DNA of 64,000 nucleotides from a virus: IMG/VR virus record IMGVR_UViG_3300028103_000009. One strand, given 5' to 3'. The translations under genes and the position numbers were made by a program. This document shows, piece by piece, positions 3,577 through 27,138 of this stretch. The notes below the pieces were generated by a model that was given only the letters and a program-made list of their open reading frames with translations, ran no database searches and had not been told where the DNA came from. Position 1 is the stretch's first letter. Each line of letters starts with the position of its first letter.

Positions 3577-5451
3577 ATGGATGCAAGAAACAATATAGCC
3601 ACTGATTTATTCTATAAAATTAGAAGCCGTTTTACTGGGCTAAAATTAGGTTCTGAAACAGGCCAAATAACCATTAATCCTGAAGAGGCACGCTTCTTTG
3701 ATTTTGATTACATGGAGGGTGAAAAGCCCATAGGGCATGTGAGCATTAGTTTGGCAGAGCCAAACAGCATGAAGGTTTACTTTAGCCATGGGATTACTGA
3801 ATCCATGGATGACGGACAGAAAAACAACTGGTACGGGTTTTTGAAAGAACTTAGAATGTTCGCAAAAAGACGTTTATTGAGTTTTGACACACGAGATATC
3901 GCTAAGGACAACTTGGATCGAAGAGATTATGAATTCTTGAGTCAATACAATAAGCCCAAGCCAACTACTAACGATACAGTGACCCAACCGGTCGGAGAAA
4001 GTGTTATGAACGAAAGCAGCTTATACGGTTCTCGAACTATGAGCTATCAAAAGCTCGAAGATACGAGACTCATCATTAAACATAGTCGAGCTATTACTGA
4101 CGACTTTGCACCCGGTGCAAGATCAAGAAATATTTCAGCATTGTTTGTTGAAAATGCCGACGGTGAAAGATTCAAATATCCTTTCATCCATCTAGCAGGT
4201 GCTCGAGCTATGCAACGCCACGTCGCTAATGGCGGTTTACCATATGATGAAATCGGTAAGTCTATTGTTAGCATGAGTGAAGAAATAGCCCAACTCAAGA
4301 GTTTCCAAAACTATGTGGTCCGTAACGATCTAATGAATAGCGAGACTAACTCAGTAGTAGAAAGAAGCACACAGGCTTTAGAAAGACTACGTGAACAAAT
4401 CAAAAATCTAGGCAAGCAGAGCCACTATGAAGCATATAGAGAATCATTCCAAGCACAGCAACCCTTAGAAGTACCACAAGAGGTAGTAGAAGACTTTACA
4501 GAAATGTTTACTGTAAGGAATTTTAAAGAAGATATCGCAAGCGTATTTCCTGTATTATATAGGCTAATGAAAGAAAATGGAGTAGGCTACAGCGACATAG
4601 TCGGTATGACAACAAACGAAATAGAAGAAAACGAAGACTTAGATATTATAGCCAACGAAGATCCATTTGAAAAGTTTGAATCTTGGGTAATGGCATTGGG
4701 CGAAGAGTCAGCTATTACTAGTCAAGATCCTGAAGAACAACAGGCAGCAGTGCAACAACTTCAAGAACTAGTCGGTGAACATTTCCCAGCAGGTGTTGAT
4801 GGTAGTAATGCTATCGAAAGCCTAAAAGGCATAATCGAAGATCCAGAACTATTCAAGAGAATCAAAGAACTTGCGGCCAATGACCCAGATGCATGTTGCA
4901 GAGGTTTAGTGAAAGATTGGTTAGAACTAAATGCTCCAGAAGTATTAGAGCAACTAGACTTCGGTGACTACACTGAAGAACCAGCAGCAGGTGAAGAACC
5001 AGCAGCAGCTGAGCCAGCAGCAGCTGAGCCAGCGGCGGCAGCACCAGAAGAAGTACCTGCCGAAGGAAGTGATCCTAATCATCCAGAATATGATAAGAAA
5101 GATGACTATGATCTTCCACCTTCAGCACGTGGCAAAGGCACAGGCGACTACAAGCTACCAGATTATAAGAAACACGATGACCGTCATGCTAGAGATTTCC
5201 GTAAGCGCAGCGGCAATGAATCTATTGATGTAAAAGAAATAGCAGAGTTCGTACACAGCTTTTATGATCGAAATACAGGCACATTCCCTAAAGGGCCAGA
5301 AGGTGTAGCAGTTATGGTAGGCAAGAAGTTCGGTGAACAGGCAGAACAGGTAGCTCGTAAATTTGTAGAAAGAATGGCTCCAAACCAAACAACAGAGCAG
5401 AATCCAGAACTACAAGAACTAGCAAGAATCAGAGAACTAGCAGGCATGTAA
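3577..5451 (+). CDS. large acidic hypothetical protein (virion/core candidate)
   Basis: Long ORF; start moved to ATG 3577, which follows TAAATA-N5; C-terminus ELARIRELAGM. Confidence 0.6.
   Translation: MDARNNIATDLFYKIRSRFTGLKLGSETGQITINPEEARFFDFDYMEGEKPIGHVSISLAEPNSMKVYFSHGITESMDDGQKNNWYGFLKELRMFAKRRLLSFDTRDIAKDNLDRRDYEFLSQYNKPKPTTNDTVTQPVGESVMNESSLYGSRTMSYQKLEDTRLIIKHSRAITDDFAPGARSRNISALFVENADGERFKYPFIHLAGARAMQRHVANGGLPYDEIGKSIVSMSEEIAQLKSFQNYVVRNDLMNSETNSVVERSTQALERLREQIKNLGKQSHYEAYRESFQAQQPLEVPQEVVEDFTEMFTVRNFKEDIASVFPVLYRLMKENGVGYSDIVGMTTNEIEENEDLDIIANEDPFEKFESWVMALGEESAITSQDPEEQQAAVQQLQELVGEHFPAGVDGSNAIESLKGIIEDPELFKRIKELAANDPDACCRGLVKDWLELNAPEVLEQLDFGDYTEEPAAGEEPAAAEPAAAEPAAAAPEEVPAEGSDPNHPEYDKKDDYDLPPSARGKGTGDYKLPDYKKHDDRHARDFRKRSGNESIDVKEIAEFVHSFYDRNTGTFPKGPEGVAVMVGKKFGEQAEQVARKFVERMAPNQTTEQNPELQELARIRELAGM
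4972..5050 (+). repeat. in-frame tandem repeat (EPAAA)n
   Basis: Repeated (GAG/GAA)CCAGCAGCAG units encoding EEPAAGEEPAAAEPAAAEPAAAAPEE. Confidence 0.8.
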
Positions 5452-5474
5452 AGATTGTTCGTAGCAGTTAGATC

Positions 5475-5499
5475 GGGCACTTCGGTGCCCTTTCTTTTT
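5475..5499 (+). terminator. Rho-independent terminator
   Basis: GGGCAC-TTCG-GTGCCC-TTTCTTTTT. Confidence 0.85.
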
Positions 5500-5599
5500 G
5501 GCTATCTTTATCTAAACTATCTTGTCAACTTAGAGTCATACTAGTGCGTTAAATTAATACACAGAGGAAATCTGTGATAACCTTAAAAAGGAAAATACT

Positions 5600-5773
5600 A
5601 TGAAACTAGTTGCAACTTTAATCGCATCTCTATTTGCTGTATCAGCATTTGCCGCAGATGCACCGAAGAAAGATGAAAAGAAAGCAGCCGCAGAAGCTCC
5701 AAAGGCCGCAGCATCAGCTGCTAAAGATGCTAAGGCTGCTCCAGCACCTGCCAAGCCAGCTGAAAAGAAGTAA
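5600..5773 (+). CDS. small secreted Ala/Lys-rich protein (57 aa; missing from the ORF track)
   Basis: AAGGAAA RBS; MKLVATLIASLFAVSAFA signal peptide followed by ADAPKKDEKKAAAEAPK...AEKK*; followed by a terminator. Confidence 0.75.
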   Translation: MKLVATLIASLFAVSAFAADAPKKDEKKAAAEAPKAAASAAKDAKAAPAPAKPAEKK

Positions 5774-5790
5774 TCGGCTAAATACCGAAC

Positions 5791-5818
5791 AAAGGGCTCA
5801 CCTGAGCCCTTTCTTTTT
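5791..5818 (+). terminator. Rho-independent terminator
   Basis: AAAGGGCTCA-CC-TGAGCCCTTT followed by CTTTTT. Confidence 0.75.
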
Positions 5819-5881
5819 GGTAAACTTTTTGTCTACTAAAATCACGCCTAAGGCGTTATATTAATATGAAGGAGAACAAAG

Positions 5882-6181
5882 ATGAAAAAGTTCTTATTCG
5901 CTACATTGATAACATTAACTGCTTTTAGCTCACAGGCACAAGCAGACGGTTGGAGACATCGAGGTGGTCATCACCACGGTGGCGGCTATGGATGGGTAGC
6001 ACCATTAGTTATTGGTGGTGCTGTAGGTTATGCACTTTCGCAGCCAAGATATGTAAGCCCGCCTCCGAGCGTGGTATACGTAACTCCTCCGCCTACATAT
6101 AATCCACCGTATGGTTATCATTGGGAGAGTGTTCTAGACGGCAACTGTAACTGTTACAGAAACGTTCTAGTTCCAAACTAA
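5882..6181 (+). CDS. secreted/membrane Gly-His-Pro-rich protein
   Basis: AAGGAG RBS, signal peptide, GGHHHGGG, hydrophobic segment, Pro-rich tail. Confidence 0.7.
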   Translation: MKKFLFATLITLTAFSSQAQADGWRHRGGHHHGGGYGWVAPLVIGGAVGYALSQPRYVSPPPSVVYVTPPPTYNPPYGYHWESVLDGNCNCYRNVLVPN

Positions 6182-17266: not shown

Positions 17267-18469
17267 ATGCTAAAATCTGATTTCATCGAAGACGTTTTCT
17301 TAGAATTTTTCGATACCTTTTCTAGGAAGAGTGTTGCCATCGCGTCTCAGGACCAGTCGGCCTGCCACAGTTTTTATAATGCTATCTATGGCGGTAAAGG
17401 ACTGACTCAGGCCCAAGCCAACTACATCATAAAAATCCTAGAAAAACACAAAAATTTGTCGGCCAACGTGGGTTTTGATTATCGACCGATATTGACACAA
17501 CCCCACAAATGGAAAAATGCATTCCGAGTCATCGACTACTCTAAAAGAGTCTATGTTGAAAAAAATGATCAAGGTCGCATCGATGTATGCCTGAAGTTTC
17601 CGTACCAACTCAAGAAGGAATTTGAGGAAGAATTTGAAGGAAAAAATGCCGAAACTACTAGTAGCCAATGGGACCATGATGCCAAGGTAAGACGTGTTCC
17701 TTTATACGACACAAACCTTATACACATTTTTGATTTTGTTTCAAAGCATGGTTTTGAAATAGATGAAACTTTCATGATAGCCATGGGAGAAGTCGAAGAA
17801 ATATGGCAAAATCAAGACGATGTTGTTCCTTACTGTTATTGGGATGGTGGACATATTAGATTGAAAAATGTCTCTGATGACGCATCCAATCATTTTGTCA
17901 ATCTTCGAACAGATAGATTACCTTCTGATTTAATGCTGGCGAAATCTATGGGTATTCCTTATAAACCTGGCAATCGTATTGCTTCAGATAATCTTTTATA
18001 CAAGATCGCCAGCTCAGAAGAAAATCATTTTTGGATTAAAAATGTGCAGGAGTTTATAGATCTCTGCTATCATATCGACGATCGTGTCGCTATTCTTTTG
18101 GATCCTAATAGTAATGAAATAGAATGGGTCAAAGATTTTGTTAAAACGGTCAATGACATGGGGCATGACATCACCAAGGTACGTGTTTGTTTTAGGCAAG
18201 ATAAAACTATCGATGACGGATTCAATCAATGGATCAAAGATGCCAATGTAGGCGGACCCGTTGAAGGTGGAAACATTTTAATCTTCAAAGGAAAGCCGGC
18301 AAAGTGGTTGTTTAAAGAAACAAAACATGTTACACTATTAGCTAGTAATGGTTTGTATCCTTCACCTGGACCCATCACACGAGACTGGATTGATTCTCAT
18401 CCTTGTGTGATTTATGTGGGCGATATAAAACCTACTAGATCGAGGAATAAGAAAATTGTCGAACTGTAA
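17267..18469 (+). CDS. hypothetical protein
   Basis: 400-aa ORF overlapping the uvsW start. Confidence 0.7.
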   Translation: MLKSDFIEDVFLEFFDTFSRKSVAIASQDQSACHSFYNAIYGGKGLTQAQANYIIKILEKHKNLSANVGFDYRPILTQPHKWKNAFRVIDYSKRVYVEKNDQGRIDVCLKFPYQLKKEFEEEFEGKNAETTSSQWDHDAKVRRVPLYDTNLIHIFDFVSKHGFEIDETFMIAMGEVEEIWQNQDDVVPYCYWDGGHIRLKNVSDDASNHFVNLRTDRLPSDLMLAKSMGIPYKPGNRIASDNLLYKIASSEENHFWIKNVQEFIDLCYHIDDRVAILLDPNSNEIEWVKDFVKTVNDMGHDITKVRVCFRQDKTIDDGFNQWIKDANVGGPVEGGNILIFKGKPAKWLFKETKHVTLLASNGLYPSPGPITRDWIDSHPCVIYVGDIKPTRSRNKKIVEL

Positions 18470-19910
18470 ACTAATAATAAAAGACGAAGTTAATATTAAG
18501 TTTGAAGGTCTGGCTGTTGAGACACGGCGAAAGATTGTAAACAAGTTAAAGTTCGACCTACCATACGCTCGACACATGCCCGCCTATAAGTTAGGTCGCT
18601 GGGATGGAACAAAAACATTTTTTGGTATCGGTGGAAACGGATATCTAGCGCATCTTGATGTAATACTTCCTATAATCGAGGATTCGGGTTACGATATAGA
18701 AGTAGAAGACCAACGTGTATCACACGATTTTAAGTTTGATCTTATCGGTGATGATTATTGGTCAAAGCAAGGCAAAACATGGCCAGAAGGTCATCAGTTT
18801 GCCGGAGAACCTATTGTACTTCGTGATTATCAATATGACGTAGTCAATAAGTTTTTAGAGAACCCGCAATCACTACAGGAGGTAGCTACAGGTGCAGGCA
18901 AAACGATTACTACTGCGACGTTATCGCATCTTTGTGAGGTATATGGTCGTACGATGGTTATTGTTCCGAACAAATCGCTTGTTGAACAAACTGAAGCGGA
19001 CTACAAAAATCTCGGCTTAGATGTCGGTGTTTATTTCGGCGATAGGAAAGAACTCAATAGGACACACACAGTATGCACATGGCAAAGTCTCAATGTGCTA
19101 GATAAGAAAAGCTATGACGAAGAAAGCCTAACACTAGCAGAGTTCTGCGAAGGAGTCGTGGCTGTCATAGTCGACGAGGTACATCAGGCTAAGGCAGATG
19201 TGCTGACAAAACTGTTAACTCAGAACTTCCGTAACTGCGGAATACGTTGGGGGTTAACAGGAACCATTCCTAAAGAAAAGTGGGAGTTTCAAAGTGTTTT
19301 GGCCAGTATAGGTCCAGTAATCAATCAAGTCACAGCACACGATCTCCAGCAAAAAGATGTTCTAGCAAAACTAGATATACAAATATTACAGACATCTGAT
19401 GTGCAGGTATTTAGGAACTATCAAGAAGAATATACTTGGTTAGTAACTGACAGCAAAAGATTAGACTGGATCGCCGACAAAATAAAAAGTTTTAGGTCTA
19501 CTGGAAATACTCTTGTATTAGTGAATCGCATTGATACAGGAGAAAAACTCATTGATAGGATTCCTGATGCTGTCTTTATCAGCGGTGCTGTTAAACTAGA
19601 CGAACGCAAGGAAGAATATGATGAAGTTAAAACAAGTGATGACAAGGTTATTGTGGCGACTTACGGTGTGGCCGCTGTTGGCATTAATATTCCAAGGATT
19701 TTTAATCTGGTTCTTATTGAGCCCGGAAAGAGCTTTGTCCGCGTTATACAAAGCATTGGGCGAGGCATTAGAAAAGCAGAAGACAAAGACTTCGTACAGA
19801 TCTGGGACATCACCAGCACCTGTAAGTATGCCAAGCGACATCTCACCGAACGCAAAAAATATTATAAGGAAGCAAAGTATCCGTTCACGGTTACAAAGGT
19901 AAACACATGA
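18456..19910 (+). CDS. uvsW: SF2 DNA helicase UvsW-like
   Basis: LRDYQ, ATGAGKT, DEVH, GLTGT and QSIGRGIR motifs. Confidence 0.92.
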   Translation: MSNCKLIIKDEVNIKFEGLAVETRRKIVNKLKFDLPYARHMPAYKLGRWDGTKTFFGIGGNGYLAHLDVILPIIEDSGYDIEVEDQRVSHDFKFDLIGDDYWSKQGKTWPEGHQFAGEPIVLRDYQYDVVNKFLENPQSLQEVATGAGKTITTATLSHLCEVYGRTMVIVPNKSLVEQTEADYKNLGLDVGVYFGDRKELNRTHTVCTWQSLNVLDKKSYDEESLTLAEFCEGVVAVIVDEVHQAKADVLTKLLTQNFRNCGIRWGLTGTIPKEKWEFQSVLASIGPVINQVTAHDLQQKDVLAKLDIQILQTSDVQVFRNYQEEYTWLVTDSKRLDWIADKIKSFRSTGNTLVLVNRIDTGEKLIDRIPDAVFISGAVKLDERKEEYDEVKTSDDKVIVATYGVAAVGINIPRIFNLVLIEPGKSFVRVIQSIGRGIRKAEDKDFVQIWDITSTCKYAKRHLTERKKYYKEAKYPFTVTKVNT

Positions 19911-20942: not shown

Positions 20943-21408
20943 ACACGTAGACCTATTCAAAGATATGATACCTGCTGTTGATATGGGTATCAAAGAGCTT
21001 TGGGATGCCGCCACTGATGAAGGTCGCAAAGAAATCAAAGGCGACCTCTTCAATCTTAATAGATATATCAGCAGTGTTAAAACCAGCAACTCTGAACTAC
21101 AAGAGCATTATCTCCTAACAGTTAATGAATACTACAACAAGAACTGGAATGAGATCAGCGCACACCCAAAGCTACAATGGCTTACTCTAGTGGCATGTAG
21201 TCATGAATCTAAGAAAGCACATTTTCACGAATGGATTCCTTTAAAGAAAGTTAAGAATCGCAAAGAAGAAGTTTTATCGGAACTGTTTCCCAATATGAAA
21301 CTTGATGATATTTCTGCATTGGCCGCTATCACTACAGATAAAGAGATAAAGGAATACTGTGAGACACTTGGTTGGGATAAAAAAGAAATCAATGGACTTA
21401 AACTATAA
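20929..21408 (+). CDS. putative clamp-loader small subunit (gp62-like)
   Basis: LNRYIS, HPKLQW and HEWI segments and size resemble gp62 homologs. Confidence 0.45.
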   Translation: MGKNKHVDLFKDMIPAVDMGIKELWDAATDEGRKEIKGDLFNLNRYISSVKTSNSELQEHYLLTVNEYYNKNWNEISAHPKLQWLTLVACSHESKKAHFHEWIPLKKVKNRKEEVLSELFPNMKLDDISALAAITTDKEIKEYCETLGWDKKEINGLKL

Positions 21409-22075
21409 GTGTGAACACTGCGGTAAGTTATTCGCTAAAGAAAAAACTTTAGTAGTTCACCTTTGTGAGCAGAAGCGTAGATACATCAGCCGTAATGAAC
21501 GGCATGTACAAGCAGGTCTTCTCACGTTTCAAAAGTTCTATGAAGTCGCACAAAAGAATAAAACTCCTAAGACATTTGATGAGTTTGAAGCCAGTCCTTA
21601 TTACACGGCATTCGTTAAGTTTGGCAGCTTTCTGATCAATACCTCGCCTATATATCCTGAACAGTTTATTGATTTTGTTGTAAAGAGTGGAGTGAAACTA
21701 GATCACTGGTGTCGAGACGAACTCTATGAACAATACCTTAGCGAACTAGTAAAAAAAGAGCCTGCAGACGGTGCTATACAGCGATCTATTAAAACTATGA
21801 TGGATTGGGGTGATGCTAACAATGCACCGTGGGAGCATTATTTTCAATACGTCAATCTAAACAGAGCCACACACGATATCCGAGAAGGATTGGTAAGTCC
21901 TTGGTTAGTGTTAAATACCAAATCGGGGAAAGAGATGTTGTCTAGGATGAACGATGAGCAGTTAGAAATAATAGGCCCGATTATAGATCCACAGTTCTGG
22001 ATTCGAAGGTTTAAAGCACTGCCTGCTGATATCGAACTCATCAAAGACGTTGTTAAAGAAGCGAAAATTTTATAA
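21392..22075 (+). CDS. zinc-finger-containing hypothetical protein
   Basis: YKCEHCGK...LVVHLC at the N-terminus. Confidence 0.6.
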   Translation: MDLNYKCEHCGKLFAKEKTLVVHLCEQKRRYISRNERHVQAGLLTFQKFYEVAQKNKTPKTFDEFEASPYYTAFVKFGSFLINTSPIYPEQFIDFVVKSGVKLDHWCRDELYEQYLSELVKKEPADGAIQRSIKTMMDWGDANNAPWEHYFQYVNLNRATHDIREGLVSPWLVLNTKSGKEMLSRMNDEQLEIIGPIIDPQFWIRRFKALPADIELIKDVVKEAKIL

Positions 22076-22471
22076 TGCCTAAAAGACCTAAAGAAGAAGT
22101 AGTAGAAGAAGAACTGGCTGATAACGAAGAGTTTATTTCCAGAGACGATCTAGACATCGAAGTAGTCGTTGGCAATGAATCACCTGATGTATATGTTAAG
22201 TTTAGTGGCTTCGAAGACGAAGAAGATGCTGAAGAGTATGCACAGTTTTTAGCTGACACGTTACCTCTACTATTATTCGAAACGACGAGATTGCAGTAAT
22301 GAAAACCAGAAAGTTACAAGATGGTTCTGAAGTTCAAGAACTTGAGGAACCAAAAATCCTTACCGTTAAAACGAAATGTCCAGAAAAATGGTTATTGGTT
22401 GACTTAGAGACTGGAGAGCGTTATACTGGATACATTACTGATGGAAATCAAAGTTGGAAAAAAGTTAATAC

Positions 22472-23050
22472 ATGCCGGACATTGACATAGATTTCGTTGA
22501 TAGAGACCAAGCACTAAAGTTGTTCAAACATATACGTGCTAGTCGAATCGAAGATGGTTCTCTTGTAAAACATAATACAGGAGTATACTTTCACGAAGTA
22601 CCTATGAATGCAGAAAACGGTATGTGTGCAGTACCGTATGAAGAAGCAGAGGAACGTGGTTATTTTAAAATAGATTTTTTAAATGTAAGTATCTACAAAG
22701 GCATCCGAGATGAAGAGCATCTCAAGAAACTGATGGAGACTGAACCACTATGGGATCTACTGGAACAAGAAGAATTCACGGACTTACTGTTTCACGTAAA
22801 TGGGCACAGTTCATTGATGAAACAGATGAAACCCCGAAGTATCGAAGAGTTGGCAATGTGCTTGTCTTTGATACGCCCGGGCAAACGGCACCTACAAGGG
22901 AAGACCTGGAGCGAGATTGGTGCGGAGATATGGAAGAAGCCGACGAACGGTGACTACTATTTCAAGAAGAGCCACGCTGTAGCGTATGCCACTGCTGTAG
23001 CAGTACAGATGAATCTAATCTGCGAGCAGATCAGTTATGGATATAGTTAA
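22472..23050 (+). CDS. miniature DNA polymerase III alpha (DnaE)-like catalytic core
   Basis: MPDIDIDF, KHNTGV, GYFKIDFL, IRPG and FKKSHAVAY are collinear with DnaE PDFDVDF, KHAGGV, KFDFL, RPGP and FNKSH. Confidence 0.8.
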   Translation: MPDIDIDFVDRDQALKLFKHIRASRIEDGSLVKHNTGVYFHEVPMNAENGMCAVPYEEAEERGYFKIDFLNVSIYKGIRDEEHLKKLMETEPLWDLLEQEEFTDLLFHVNGHSSLMKQMKPRSIEELAMCLSLIRPGKRHLQGKTWSEIGAEIWKKPTNGDYYFKKSHAVAYATAVAVQMNLICEQISYGYS

Positions 23051-23418
23051 GGTGCTTTTCGCACCAAAGTAATCGATTTACGTTTAATACGTTTAACGAT
23101 TATATCATTAAGGCTAGTACATGGCCCTAGTACTACCTTTACATCTTTGGTAGCAAAGTTCCTAATAACGTACCTAAACTGTATTATTTCTTTGTTTAGG
23201 AAAATATTGATAGGTATTTGTCTATTAGACTCCCACCACCAAGCTTCTCCTAGCTCTAAGAACTTGGCTTTTTCAGCTTCTGTGCGAATAGATGAATAAT
23301 CGTAGATGCTGGTAACTTGAGCATCCTGATTGATTATTATCCCCACGTATTCCTGATTTACGTGGGTTAGGATACTTATGAATGGAAAGTTTTCTTGTAA
23401 GTTTTCTGTTATTCTCAT
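23047..23418 (-). CDS. hypothetical protein
   Basis: ORF track; WWWESNRQIPINIF. Confidence 0.6.
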   Translation of the reverse strand: MRITENLQENFPFISILTHVNQEYVGIIINQDAQVTSIYDYSSIRTEAEKAKFLELGEAWWWESNRQIPINIFLNKEIIQFRYVIRNFATKDVKVVLGPCTSLNDIIVKRIKRKSITLVRKAP

Positions 23419-24568: not shown

Positions 24569-25573
24569 ATGACTCTGGTAATAGATACATTCCGTAAACT
24601 ACTCCCACCCCGTGCTAAGGCAACTCCCTCTGGGTGGACTAGTTTCAATGCCCCATGTTGCGGTCATCGTGGCCATAGTCCAGATACTCGAAAACGTGGT
24701 GGAGTAAGGTTTGACCAAGGAATAGTATTCAACTGTTTCAACTGCAAGTTTAGTGCAAGTTGGCAACCGGGTCGCCCAATATCAGAAAAACTAAAAGCTC
24801 TATGTCGTTGGCTCGGTGCCACTGAAGATGATATCAAGACGTTAGTCTTTGAAGCATTAAAAACAGAAGCGCCAGACTATGTACACGAAGTCAAAGAAGC
24901 AGTTAGCTTCACTCCTAAAAAACTACCCGAAGGAAGTGCTCCACTAACAGAGTGGGCTGAACATCCTTGTTTGCCTGAAGAGTACGGCATTAAGATAGCA
25001 GAAGTTGTAGAATATCTAACTAATAGAGGACTAGATCCAACTGATCCTTTGTATCATTGGAGTCCTGAAGCAGGGTATGAGAATCGTGTGATCATTCCAT
25101 TCTTTTATAATGGTGTCGTTGTTGGTAACACAGCACGTAAGGTCACTGAAGGAAAACCAAAGTATCTTTCTGATCAACATCCACATTTTGTCTTTAATAT
25201 CGATTCTCAAGAAGAGGATCAAAAATATCTCTTTGTATGTGAAGGCCCGTTTGATGCTATATCAGTAGGAGGTGTAGCTTTGCTAACCAATGATATAGCA
25301 GATCAGCAGGCACGTATCATAAACAGCCTGGGTGCAGAAGTTATCGTTATTCCGGATCAAGATGAAGCAGGGCTAAATCTAATAAAGAAAGCCATAGATT
25401 ATGATTGGTCTGTGGCGTTTCCTAACTGGGATATTGATGTCAAAGATCCTGCAGATGCTGTGCTTAAATATGGAAAACTATTTGTCATAGTTGACGCTAT
25501 CAAAACAGCTCAAAAAGGCAAGATAAAAATAACGATGGCTATGAATAAATTTAAAAACAATCTAGAGAAATAA
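24569..25573 (+). CDS. DNA primase (gp61-like)
   Basis: Zn-binding PCC..FNCFNC, IIPF, PKYL, TOPRIM EGPFDA, PDQD, KDPAD. Confidence 0.9.
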   Translation: MTLVIDTFRKLLPPRAKATPSGWTSFNAPCCGHRGHSPDTRKRGGVRFDQGIVFNCFNCKFSASWQPGRPISEKLKALCRWLGATEDDIKTLVFEALKTEAPDYVHEVKEAVSFTPKKLPEGSAPLTEWAEHPCLPEEYGIKIAEVVEYLTNRGLDPTDPLYHWSPEAGYENRVIIPFFYNGVVVGNTARKVTEGKPKYLSDQHPHFVFNIDSQEEDQKYLFVCEGPFDAISVGGVALLTNDIADQQARIINSLGAEVIVIPDQDEAGLNLIKKAIDYDWSVAFPNWDIDVKDPADAVLKYGKLFVIVDAIKTAQKGKIKITMAMNKFKNNLEK

Positions 25574-25678
25574 ATGATTAAAAAATGGTTAAAGTGGTTT
25601 CGTGAATGGAGAGAACTGAGAGCTTTTAGAAAGAAAGTAGCCAGACTAAAAGATAAGGATCCGTTCATTTACAAATGA
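25574..25678 (+). CDS. 34-aa basic peptide coupled to the carbamoyltransferase (missing from the ORF track)
   Basis: MIKKWLKWFREWRELRAFRKKVARLKDKDPFIYK*; starts right after the primase stop and has an ATGA overlap with the next gene. Confidence 0.6.
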   Translation: MIKKWLKWFREWRELRAFRKKVARLKDKDPFIYK

Positions 25679-27138
25679 TTACTTGGGGTATTTCAGCAAA
25701 CAGTCATGATGCTGCTCTAGCAGTATTCTGTGACGAGAAACTAGCATTCGCTAGCCAAAGCGAAAGATTTAGTGGTGTCAAGAATGATCCGCATCTGGAT
25801 TATTCTATGATCGCATACGCAGAACAACGATGGGGTAAACCAGGACGCATCTATTGGTATGAGAACCCGCTAAAGAAAAGTATACGACAGCTATTTGCAG
25901 GACAGATTGAAAATATAAAAGAAAATAATATCAAGAGGTACCTTAGTACATATAATATCAATGCACCTATTCGTTACACTGATCATCATCGTAGTCACGC
26001 CGCTGCTGGTTATTTTACTAGTCCATTTGATCGCGCTTGTGTTCTCGTGATTGATGCTATCGGTGAGTTTGAAACACTAACGATATGGAAAGCTGACGGA
26101 TTAGAACTTAAGAAGGTATACAGCCAAAGATATCCTAACTCTATAGGCCTATGGTACAGTGCTATGACGCAACGTGTGGGACTAAAGCCCAATGAAGAAG
26201 AATATATCCTAATGGGCATGTCAGCGTATGGCGATGATAGCCTGACTAACAAAGTATACGATGACTTTATTAGGAATGCTGATCGTTTTGAGTTTAAAGA
26301 TAATCTGCATAGAGGCTGTAAGACTTGGGCTCCTGAACTCTTAGAAGACGCTAACTTTGATATAGCTTCTGCCACGCAGAAAGTATATGAAACATTATTC
26401 ATGACTGCGCTAAAGAAAGCAAGAGAGTTAGTAGATTGTGAAAATCTCGTTCTCATGGGCGGCTGTGCCTTAAACTGTGTGGCCAATAGATTAGTATATC
26501 GATATTTTGATAAACTATGGATCTATCCTAGTCCTGGCGACAGTGGATCAGCTATCGGCGCAGTATTGGCACATCATCCTGTTTGGCGGTTTGGTACCTA
26601 TTGGGATGAACCATTCTTGGGCTACGATATGGGATATCACACTACTGAAGAACATATCGTCGATTATCTTATAGAACATAAGATTTGTGGACTAGCTAGG
26701 GGTCGTGCAGAGTTTGGACCTAGAGCACTAGGCAATAGAAGTCTTATTGCAGATCCCAGAGGTAATGATATAAAGGAAAGAGTAAATGATATTAAACGAA
26801 GACAAAAATTTAGACCCTTTGCCCCTGCAGTTTTGGCTGAGTTATCTAATGATTATTTTGATATCCCTGGTGGCCGCAGTCCTTATATGCAAATGGTCGC
26901 TAAGTGCAGGAATCCTGAGCTTTATCCTGCTATCGTTCACGTTGACGGGACTTCTCGTGTACAGACAGTTGAAAAAGACGGATCTCCATTTAGACGACTC
27001 TTAGAGATATGGTATGCACGTACAGGCTGTCCAATGCTGTTAAACACCAGTCTTAATATCAAGGGAGAGCCTATGGTAAACGACATAGAAGATTCTGAGC
27101 GTTGGAGTCAAAAATATGGTTTACCTGTGTTTAACTAG
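25675..27138 (+). CDS. carbamoyltransferase (NodU/CmcH/TobZ family)
   Basis: HDAA, HHRSHAA, DAIGE, GGCALNC, EFGPRALGNRS, RPFAP and LNTSLN motifs. Confidence 0.93.
   Translation: MITWGISANSHDAALAVFCDEKLAFASQSERFSGVKNDPHLDYSMIAYAEQRWGKPGRIYWYENPLKKSIRQLFAGQIENIKENNIKRYLSTYNINAPIRYTDHHRSHAAAGYFTSPFDRACVLVIDAIGEFETLTIWKADGLELKKVYSQRYPNSIGLWYSAMTQRVGLKPNEEEYILMGMSAYGDDSLTNKVYDDFIRNADRFEFKDNLHRGCKTWAPELLEDANFDIASATQKVYETLFMTALKKARELVDCENLVLMGGCALNCVANRLVYRYFDKLWIYPSPGDSGSAIGAVLAHHPVWRFGTYWDEPFLGYDMGYHTTEEHIVDYLIEHKICGLARGRAEFGPRALGNRSLIADPRGNDIKERVNDIKRRQKFRPFAPAVLAELSNDYFDIPGGRSPYMQMVAKCRNPELYPAIVHVDGTSRVQTVEKDGSPFRRLLEIWYARTGCPMLLNTSLNIKGEPMVNDIEDSERWSQKYGLPVFN

What the first reader, a model, noticed from the sequence alone, without database searches (positions are those of the whole stretch)
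22472..23050. 192-aa stand-alone miniature C-family (DnaE) polymerase core
Seen: the ORF starts at PDIDIDF and keeps KHNTGV, KIDFL, IRPG and FKKSHAVAY in DnaE order, so all three catalytic Asp positions are present. There is no PHP, clamp-binding or OB domain, and the motif spacers are heavily shortened. It is intact, overlaps the upstream gene, and sits among replication genes. Established: cellular DnaE is over 1000 aa and T4-like phages replicate with B-family polymerases. Inference: either one subunit of a split polymerase, or a repurposed minimal nucleotidyltransferase or primer-handling enzyme.
Basis: partly seen in the sequence, partly recalled or inferred. Interest (0 to 1): 0.75.

Follow-up and report, generated by a model that had tools for sequence, protein, structure and literature searches.

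The report
C-terminal half of split mini-DnaE
This 192-aa phage gene is real and well conserved, but it is only the catalytic-aspartate half of a two-piece, stripped-down DnaE-type polymerase that was described computationally in large T4-like phages in 2021, so it is a normal member of a known but biochemically untested family.

Summary
The ORF (22472-23050, +) exists exactly as described. The DnaE motifs are genuine: D3/D5/D68 correspond to E. coli DnaE D401/D403/D555 and are near-invariant across 89 diverse homologues. The AlphaFold model (pLDDT 96.6) matches only C-family polymerases (Z 9.6; Taq DnaE 461-841, E. coli 401-781). The gene is under strong purifying selection (median dN/dS 0.12).

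It is not a stand-alone polymerase core. It lacks the NTP-binding first half of the palm (E. coli 271-398). In related phages a separate ~160-aa protein (phrog_11127, Pfam PF07733) supplies that half from a gene 11-180 kb away. One natural 375-aa fusion of both pieces folds into a contiguous DnaE palm plus partial fingers (Z 21.7).

This is the "minimal, split DNA polymerase III alpha" that Iyer et al. 2021 (PMC7824862) reported for group 2.2 jumbo phages, alongside a family B polymerase. PHROGs (phrog_11778) and several GenBank records already name it. The window's 147-kb record is about 38% complete and holds neither the partner nor a PolB; complete relatives hold both.

Verdict: observation confirmed. 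The "subunit of a split polymerase" reading is supported and the "stand-alone" reading is rejected. The family is already known, and its biochemistry and role remain untested.

The parts
22472..23050 (+). Gene for the C-terminal unit of the split minimal Pol III alpha (192 aa): second half of the palm with the catalytic Asp triad, plus a reduced fingers segment
   Evidence: ORF. phrog_11778 4e-71 over its full length. AF2 pLDDT 96.6. VIA Z 9.6 to Taq DnaE 461-841 and E. coli 401-781.
22475..22495 (+). PDIDIDF (res 2-8): metal-binding DxDxD strand, equivalent to E. coli DnaE PDFDVDF (D401, D403, D405)
   Evidence: phmmer alignments to 2hnh and 3e0d. D3 87/89, D5 87/89, D7 85/89. 76/76 in close relatives.
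22667..22681 (+). KIDFL (res 66-70): K66 and third catalytic Asp D68, equivalent to E. coli K553/D555 in KFDFLGL
   Evidence: Profile alignment to E. coli 538-641. K66 and D68 invariant in 89/89.
22871..22885 (+). IRPGK (res 134-138): fingers motif, equivalent to E. coli (F)RPG at ~638-641
   Evidence: R135 88/89, P136 89/89, K138 79/89.
22961..22987 (+). FKKSHAVAY (res 164-172): fingers motif, equivalent to E. coli FNKSHSAAY at ~756-764
   Evidence: K165 81/89 (+6 R), H168 86/89.
21359..22075 (+). Context: 238-aa protein with an N-terminal C2H2-like Zn finger (phrog_11058); a conserved upstream neighbour of the C-unit
   Evidence: Homologues sit just upstream of the C-unit in RaK2, PA5oct, Atu_ph07, Phosso and the IMG/VR relatives. 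A functional link was not tested.
23047..23418 (-). Context: conserved convergent 123-aa ORF (phrog_11637, function unknown) overlapping the C-unit stop codon
   Evidence: Conserved at the same place in all jumbo relatives.
18456..19910 (+). Context: UvsW-type SF2 helicase
   Evidence: Pfam ResIII/Helicase_C and phrog_16. 45-70% identical to the RaK2, PA5oct and Atu_ph07 counterparts.
24569..25573 (+). Context: gp61-type DNA primase (Toprim)
   Evidence: Pfam Toprim_2 and phrog_47. Syntenic in all relatives.

Best explanation
The gene encodes the C-terminal unit of a two-piece, minimal C-family (Pol III alpha / DnaE-type) nucleotidyltransferase of large T4-like phages. This unit carries the three metal-binding aspartates (D3, D5, D68), the neighbouring lysine (K66) and a cut-down fingers segment (RPGK, KKSH). 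It has no PHP, thumb, (HhH)2, clamp-binding or OB parts. It also lacks the first half of the Pol-beta-type palm, which holds the GRGS NTP-binding motif. That half is a separate ~160-aa protein (phrog_11127, Pfam PF07733) encoded far away in the genome. The N-unit ends at ...EFLR and the C-unit begins two residues before the DxD motif, so the two chains should dock end to end and rebuild one active site. Shown here: homology, fold, residue conservation, purifying selection, co-occurrence of the two units, and one natural fusion. Inferred: that the two proteins form a heterodimer; that the enzyme extends a primer on a template; and that it acts as an auxiliary, low-processivity polymerase beside the phage's family B replicase, for example in primer extension, gap filling or recombination-dependent synthesis. 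I put about 0.9 on the identity and about 0.5 on the templated DNA polymerase role.
For: phrog_11778 match at 4e-71 over the full length, and phrog_405 (DnaE) matches in DnaE order. Model pLDDT 96.6. Foldseek's top 15 are all Pol III alpha/PolC. VIA Z 6.1-9.6 with 161-190 of 192 residues aligned, against Z 3.1 for the next unrelated chain. Catalytic residues near-invariant in 89 representatives that are <=50% identical. Omega median 0.12 over 221 pairs. N-unit: Atu_ph07 gp316 = phrog_11127, matching DnaE profile positions 361-435, directly before the C-unit's 442-454. Both units occur in the same phage genera with matching counts. Both units plus an unsplit ~900-aa PolB are present in the 100%-complete 364-kb relative G001. 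Both units are present in the 141.6-kb phage Slickus01. The natural fusion P0195 carries phrog_11127 at 8-180 and phrog_11778 at 190-374. Its model aligns to M. tuberculosis DnaE1 299-800, Taq 292-830 and E. coli 271-773 at Z 15-22. The combined profile aligns without a break across the split on E. coli DnaE at 9.3e-13. Iyer et al. 2021 reached the same reading independently.
Against: The window's own 147-kb record contains no N-unit and no PolB. It is only about 38% complete, so this is uninformative rather than contrary. Two of five long relatives (56% and 79% complete) also lack a detectable N-unit. No biochemical data exist for any family member. The fusion is known from a single 2.4-kb metagenome contig. 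About 97 residues of DnaE fingers between RPG and NKSH (E. coli 642-738) are reduced to about 25, so dNTP and template handling may differ from DnaE. I recall this stretch including R709/R710, but that is from memory and was not checked. Heterodimer formation could not be modelled with the tools available.
Confidence: 0.8

Rival explanations
1. The two-piece enzyme is a Pol-beta-fold nucleotidyltransferase with a job other than templated DNA synthesis. Examples are untemplated 3'-end addition, synthesis of a nucleotide signal or primer-like oligomer, or a step tied to DNA modification.
For: Loss of the thumb, most of the fingers and all processivity and proofreading modules. The next structural neighbours after DnaE are small NTases such as MenT, Cid1 and PAP, though only at Z <=3.6. 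MazG-like pyrophosphohydrolase sits beside the N-unit and a carbamoyltransferase sits next to the primase, so nucleotide or DNA chemistry occurs nearby.
Against: The residues kept outside the palm are the DnaE-specific fingers motifs (RPG, KSH), and they are 97-100% conserved. Synteny with UvsW, primase and helicase is conserved from RaK2 to this window. The similarity to DnaE (Z 21.7) far exceeds that to any other NTase.
Confidence: 0.15
2. A self-sufficient, stand-alone miniature polymerase: the 192-aa chain alone is the enzyme.
For: All three catalytic Asp residues and K66 are on this chain. The chain folds confidently on its own.
Against: It starts two residues before the DxD motif and lacks the whole N-terminal palm half with the GRGS NTP-binding motif (E. 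coli 271-398). That half exists as a co-occurring separate protein and, in one case, as a fusion.
Confidence: 0.04
3. A decaying fragment or pseudogene of a full-length dnaE, or a catalytically dead structural relic.
For: It is one sixth the length of DnaE, and Pfam gives only a sub-threshold fingers hit (20.4 against 22 bits).
Against: Omega median 0.12 and 76/76 conservation of 11 key residues. Length is constant at 183-219 aa across 88 divergent cluster representatives, with 437 hits at E<=1e-3. No longer relatives were found. The model is very confident.
Confidence: 0.01

Closest known systems
Split minimal DNA polymerase III alpha of group 2.2 jumbo phages (Iyer, Anantharaman, Krishnan, Burroughs, Aravind 2021, Viruses 13:63, PMC7824862); C-terminal unit = PHROGs phrog_11778, e.g. 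Phosso XYS97594.1, Atu_ph07 gp074, PA5oct EST35_0220, RaK2 ORF124
   Same: Same family (4e-71, full length), same size, same start at the DxD motif, and the same neighbours (Zn-finger protein, reverse 120-aa ORF, structural protein, primase). Relatives carry the same partner N-unit and a PolB.
   Different: Only 36-55% identical to any cultured phage's copy. The closest relatives (64-78%) are uncultivated metagenomic phages. The partner gene was not seen in this incomplete record.
Bacterial DnaE / PolC (C-family replicases; PDB 2hnh, 2hpi, 3e0d, 5lew, 3f2b)
   Same: Catalytic triad D401/D403/D555 and K553, the RPG and NKSH fingers motifs, and the Pol-beta-type palm fold. The C-unit model aligns to E. 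coli 401-781 and the fusion model to 271-773.
   Different: No PHP domain, thumb (E. coli ~433-510 by my recollection of Lamers et al. 2006, not checked here), distal fingers, (HhH)2, beta-clamp motif, OB or tau-binding domain. The palm is divided between two polypeptides. About 350 residues in total, against 1160.
Full-length host-like DnaE of group 3.2 jumbo phages (phage G and others; phrog_405)
   Same: Phage-encoded C-family polymerase. The phrog_405 profile detects both units.
   Different: Those are ~1200-aa, PHP-bearing, single-chain primary replicases. This one is minimal, split and accompanies a PolB.

Membership tests
C-family DNA polymerase catalytic subunit (Pol III alpha, DnaE/PolC) | Three catalytic acidic residues on the palm (E. 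coli D401, D403, D555) | tested here: met
   D3, D5 and D68 align to them. Conserved in 87/89, 87/89 and 89/89.
C-family DNA polymerase catalytic subunit (Pol III alpha, DnaE/PolC) | Pol-beta-type palm plus fingers fold superposable on solved DnaE/PolC | tested here: met
   VIA Z 9.6 (188 aligned, 3.8 A) to 3e0d. All top 14 are Pol III alpha/PolC and the next chain is at Z 3.1. Foldseek top hit 4.3e-4, TMq 0.61.
C-family DNA polymerase catalytic subunit (Pol III alpha, DnaE/PolC) | N-terminal palm half with the GRGS NTP-binding motif (Pfam PF07733 core) on the same chain | tested here: not met
   The protein begins at E. coli residue ~399. PF07733 finds nothing in the record. The motif lies on a separate protein in relatives.
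C-family DNA polymerase catalytic subunit (Pol III alpha, DnaE/PolC) | PHP domain, thumb, (HhH)2, clamp-binding motif, OB fold | tested here: not met
   192 aa in total. The model covers only DnaE 401-781, with the thumb and the 642-738 segment deleted.
C-family DNA polymerase catalytic subunit (Pol III alpha, DnaE/PolC) | Pfam domain hit above the gathering score | tested here: not met
   DNA_pol3_finger scores 20.4 bits against a cut-off of 22.
Split minimal Pol III alpha of T4-like large phages, C-terminal unit (phrog_11778; Iyer et al. 2021) | Full-length match to the family profile, ~190 aa, N-terminus at the DxD motif | tested here: met
   4.3e-71, residues 3-186 on profile positions 8-194 of 197. 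76 of 80 relatives start at the same ATG.
Split minimal Pol III alpha of T4-like large phages, C-terminal unit (phrog_11778; Iyer et al. 2021) | Separate N-terminal unit (phrog_11127) encoded elsewhere in the same genome | tested here: inconclusive
   Not found in the 147-kb, ~38%-complete record. Found in relatives G001 (100% complete), G003, G004, Atu_ph07, Phosso, PA5oct, RaK2 and Slickus01.
Split minimal Pol III alpha of T4-like large phages, C-terminal unit (phrog_11778; Iyer et al. 2021) | Co-exists with a family B DNA polymerase | tested here: inconclusive
   No PolB in the fragment. Four of five long relatives have an ~890-900-aa PolB.
Split minimal Pol III alpha of T4-like large phages, C-terminal unit (phrog_11778; Iyer et al. 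2021) | Group 2 (T4-like) replication gene context | tested here: met
   UvsW helicase and gp61-type primase flank it, in a gene order shared with RaK2, PA5oct, Atu_ph07 and Phosso.
Split minimal Pol III alpha of T4-like large phages, C-terminal unit (phrog_11778; Iyer et al. 2021) | Polymerase activity of the reconstituted pair | not testable with these tools
   No biochemical report found.

The most novel reading that the evidence does not exclude
The heterodimeric mini-DnaE is a dedicated primer-extension polymerase of the phage lagging-strand machinery. It would take over RNA primers from the adjacent gp61-type primase and hand them to the family B replicase. This would be a phage analogue of the DnaE-to-PolC or Pol alpha-to-Pol delta division of labour, and the smallest natural C-family polymerase. 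The conserved linkage of the C-unit to primase and helicase genes fits this reading but does not test it.
Probability: 0.15. Interest if true: 0.7.

Novelty: already known. Interest (0 to 1): 0.3.

Why it matters
A ~350-residue, two-chain C-family polymerase would be the minimal natural form of the bacterial replicase fold. It could serve as a model for how the enzyme arose, which is the argument of Iyer et al. 2021, and as a compact scaffold for enzymology. Its coexistence with a family B replicase raises a testable question about division of labour in phage replisomes. None of this is new with this window.

Tried and rejected
1. I searched the window's own record for the partner N-unit, PF07733, PolB (PF00136, phrog_262) and the Atu_ph07 gp316/gp277 proteins. 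Nothing was found. I rejected this as evidence because the record is a ~38%-complete fragment and these genes lie 150-180 kb from the C-unit in complete relatives.
2. Megablast of 10 kb around the gene against GenBank phages gave no match.
3. A word-based search for longer or fused relatives found none. The exhaustive phmmer search found one, P0195.
4. The first combined alignment for the fusion (A2) and a second one (A3) misplaced the N-units on the C-half, because GRGSSVASY and HKID resemble KKSHAVAY and FKID. I discarded both and found a verified alignment (A4) by local MAFFT trials.
5. Single-sequence phmmer against PDB was only marginal (E 0.047). Profiles were needed.
6. Two bacterial polymerase surveys (PMC3919608, PMC12926913) do not mention this phage form. 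I could not reach a PA5oct expression dataset covering the gene.
7. Co-folding with the neighbouring Zn-finger protein or with the N-unit was not possible, because the tool takes single chains only.
8. DnaE subdomain boundaries (thumb 433-510 and the finger subdivisions) could not be verified in an accessible paper and are quoted from memory.

Full report
OBSERVATION. The ORF at 22472-23050 (+) is present as described. It starts at ATG, encodes 192 aa, and overlaps the preceding 63-aa ORF (22299-22490) by 19 nt. The motifs MPDIDIDF, KHNTGV, KIDFL, IRPG and FKKSHAVAY occur in that order. A UvsW-type helicase lies 2.5 kb upstream (18456-19910) and a Toprim primase lies 1.5 kb downstream (24569-25573).

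IS THE DnaE RESEMBLANCE REAL? Yes.
- Pfam gives only a sub-threshold DNA_pol3_finger hit, 20.4 bits against a cut-off of 22.
- PHROGs places the whole protein in phrog_11778 ("DNA polymerase", 197 positions) at 4e-71.
- The full-length phage DnaE profile phrog_405 matches in three collinear pieces: positions 442-454, 577-679 and 778-809 of 1190.
- A profile of 89 family members hits E. coli DnaE at E 7.6e-6, covering residues 538-641 and 739-768.
- An AlphaFold2 model built on that alignment is very confident, with pLDDT 96.6 and pTM 0.89.
- Foldseek's 15 best PDB matches are all Pol III alpha or PolC (best 4.3e-4, TMq 0.61).
- With VIA-align the top 14 chains are all C-family polymerases, at Z 6.1-9.6 with 161-190 of 192 residues aligned. 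The next unrelated chain scores Z 3.1.
- Model residues 1-190 span Taq DnaE 461-841, E. coli DnaE 401-781 and PolC 971-1299. About 380 residues of DnaE are therefore condensed into 190.
- Two stretches are missing. One is the region between the DxD strand and the KxD strand, which is the thumb by my recollection of Lamers et al. 2006 (not verified here). The other is E. coli 642-738 in the fingers.

CONSERVATION AND SELECTION. An exhaustive phmmer search of 1.84 billion cluster representatives gave 437 hits at E<=1e-3. Of the 150 listed, 88 are 183-219 aa and one is 375 aa; the shorter ones match only part of the query. I aligned the window protein with the 88 full-length representatives, which are <=50% identical to one another. 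The counts are:
- D3 87/89, D5 87/89, D7 85/89
- H34 86/89, G37 87/89
- K66 89/89, D68 89/89
- R135 88/89, P136 89/89
- K165 81/89 (plus 6 R), H168 86/89

D3, D5 and D68 align to E. coli D401, D403 and D555, and K66 aligns to K553. In 76 genes taken from IMG/VR relatives (64-73% identical), all 11 of these residues are identical. Nei-Gojobori omega over the 221 unsaturated pairs has a median of 0.12 and a range of 0.05-0.28.

IT IS HALF AN ENZYME. The protein begins two residues before the DxD motif. It therefore lacks the first half of the Pol-beta-type palm (E. coli 271-398), which holds the GRGS NTP-binding motif.
- The Atu_ph07 paper calls gp316 a "Pol III alpha subunit". This 177-aa protein belongs to phrog_11127 and matches phrog_405 at positions 361-435, directly before the C-unit's 442-454.
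- Homologues of this N-unit are as abundant as the C-unit, run 155-172 aa, and carry Pfam PF07733 above threshold.
- In GenBank phages the two units occur in the same genera with matching counts: Escherichia 34/34, Pseudomonas 11/11, Erwinia 8/8, Salmonella 8/8, Klebsiella 11/10.
- Five long IMG/VR relatives were searched. The 100%-complete 364-kb record G001 has the C-unit near 12 kb, a 161-aa N-unit at 191.9-192.4 kb, and an unsplit ~900-aa PolB at 166-169 kb. G003 and G004 also have both units.
- Phage Slickus01 (141.6 kb, complete) has both units 11 kb apart, so the arrangement is not restricted to jumbo genomes.

A NATURAL FUSION. One representative, P0195 (375 aa), carries phrog_11127 at residues 8-180 and phrog_11778 at 190-374. 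Its phrog_405 and PF07733 matches run unbroken across the junction. It is a continuous ORF, but it is known from one 2.4-kb metagenome contig only.

After discarding two misaligned MSAs, I built a verified alignment (A4). In it every N-unit ends at P0195 residue 180 (...EFLR on ...EFIK), and the C-units begin at DFDIDT after a 10-residue linker. The model has pLDDT 79.5 and pTM 0.74, and residues 1-78 are unreliable. It aligns about 290 residues at 3.1 A:
- M. tuberculosis DnaE1 299-800, Z 21.7
- Taq DnaE 292-830, Z 21.6
- PolC 817-1288, Z 20.6
- E. coli DnaE 271-773, Z 15-16

Below Z 13.3 the rows are mostly other Pol-beta-fold nucleotidyltransferases (MenT, Cid1, PAP, Pol beta), at Z <=3.6. 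The A4 profile aligns to E. coli DnaE at 9.3e-13 with no break at the split point. The N-unit's ...GvGRGSsvaSy...FLk lies on E. coli 320-393 (...GPGRGSGAGSLVAY...FERFLN), followed by PDFDVDF. Together the two units equal the DnaE palm plus a reduced fingers segment, and the break lies in the loop just before the catalytic strand.

THE WINDOW'S OWN GENOME. The record is a 147,329-bp linear IMG/VR fragment estimated at 38% complete. It contains no N-unit, no PF07733 match and no PolB. In complete relatives those genes lie 150-180 kb from the C-unit, so this absence carries no weight. The identical protein is on record on 32 contigs, the longest 280.6 kb. I could not search those contigs.

CONTEXT. 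The following gene order is conserved in RaK2, PA5oct, Atu_ph07, Phosso and the metagenomic relatives:
1. UvsW helicase
2. 168-aa ORF
3. (159-aa ORF)
4. Zn-finger protein (phrog_11058)
5. variable small ORFs
6. C-unit
7. convergent 123-aa ORF (phrog_11637)
8. structural protein
9. primase

The 63-aa ORF that overlaps the start of the C-unit is not conserved. The N-unit sits beside a gp31/GroES-like gene and a MazG-like pyrophosphohydrolase, and in Atu_ph07 it lies a few genes from the clamp loader. This places both units in replication-related regions but does not define a role.

WHAT IS KNOWN. Iyer et al. [quoted passage not shown] That is this protein. PHROGs and several GenBank records already label it, for example "DnaE-like DNA polymerase III alpha" in phage Phosso. 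I found no biochemical study, and two bacterial polymerase surveys do not cover it.

MECHANISM. Shown: fold, catalytic residues, selection, a co-occurring partner, and one fusion. Inferred: the N-unit's C-terminus docks against residue 1 of the C-unit, bringing the GRGS loop over D3/D5/D68 to form one two-metal active site. With no thumb, clamp-binding motif or proofreading domain, the enzyme would be distributive. It most likely acts as an auxiliary polymerase beside the PolB replicase, in primer extension, gap filling or recombination-dependent synthesis. The main rival (about 0.15) is a non-templated or otherwise different nucleotidyl-transfer activity, which the drastic trimming of the fingers leaves open.

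VERDICT. The "subunit of a split polymerase" alternative is supported, and the "stand-alone core" reading is rejected. The family is already described, so novelty is low. The biology remains interesting because it is untested.

Noticed in passing
window 25675-27138 (+): A 487-aa carbamoyltransferase (Pfam Carbam_trans_N and Carbam_trans_C, 1e-39 and 3e-49) lies directly downstream of the primase. This is an unusual neighbour for replication genes and might relate to nucleotide or DNA modification.
   Followed up: partly
window 22299-22490 (+): The 63-aa ORF that overlaps the C-unit start matches only the last 54 positions of the 559-position PHROG phrog_4098 (7e-12). Among the relatives compared it is present only in G002, so it is a variable insert and not part of the conserved block.
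   Followed up: partly
L014 (IMG/VR relative G002) 4551-5910: Two extra ORFs (200 and 262 aa) are inserted between the C-unit and the conserved reverse 123-aa ORF. In the window and in all other relatives these two genes abut. Possibly a mobile insertion.
   Followed up: no
L093 1066-2193 (ENA contig, P0195): A natural single-chain fusion of the N- and C-units (375 aa), sitting at the C-unit's usual position with a reverse ORF overlapping its end. It is known from one 2.4-kb contig only. It is either a secondary fusion or an unsplit ancestral state.
   Followed up: partly
L092 / L094 (Alishewanella phage Slickus01, OQ508957.1, 68.3-68.9 kb and 79.8-80.3 kb): A complete 141.6-kb phage, below the 200-kb jumbo threshold, carries both units of the split mini-Pol III alpha. 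The published description ties the enzyme to group 2.2 jumbo phages.
   Followed up: partly
window 21359-22075 (+) and 23047-23418 (-): The Zn-finger protein (phrog_11058) and the convergent 123-aa ORF (phrog_11637) flank the C-unit in every jumbo relative examined, from RaK2 to Phosso. Both have unknown function and are candidates for accessory factors.
   Followed up: partly
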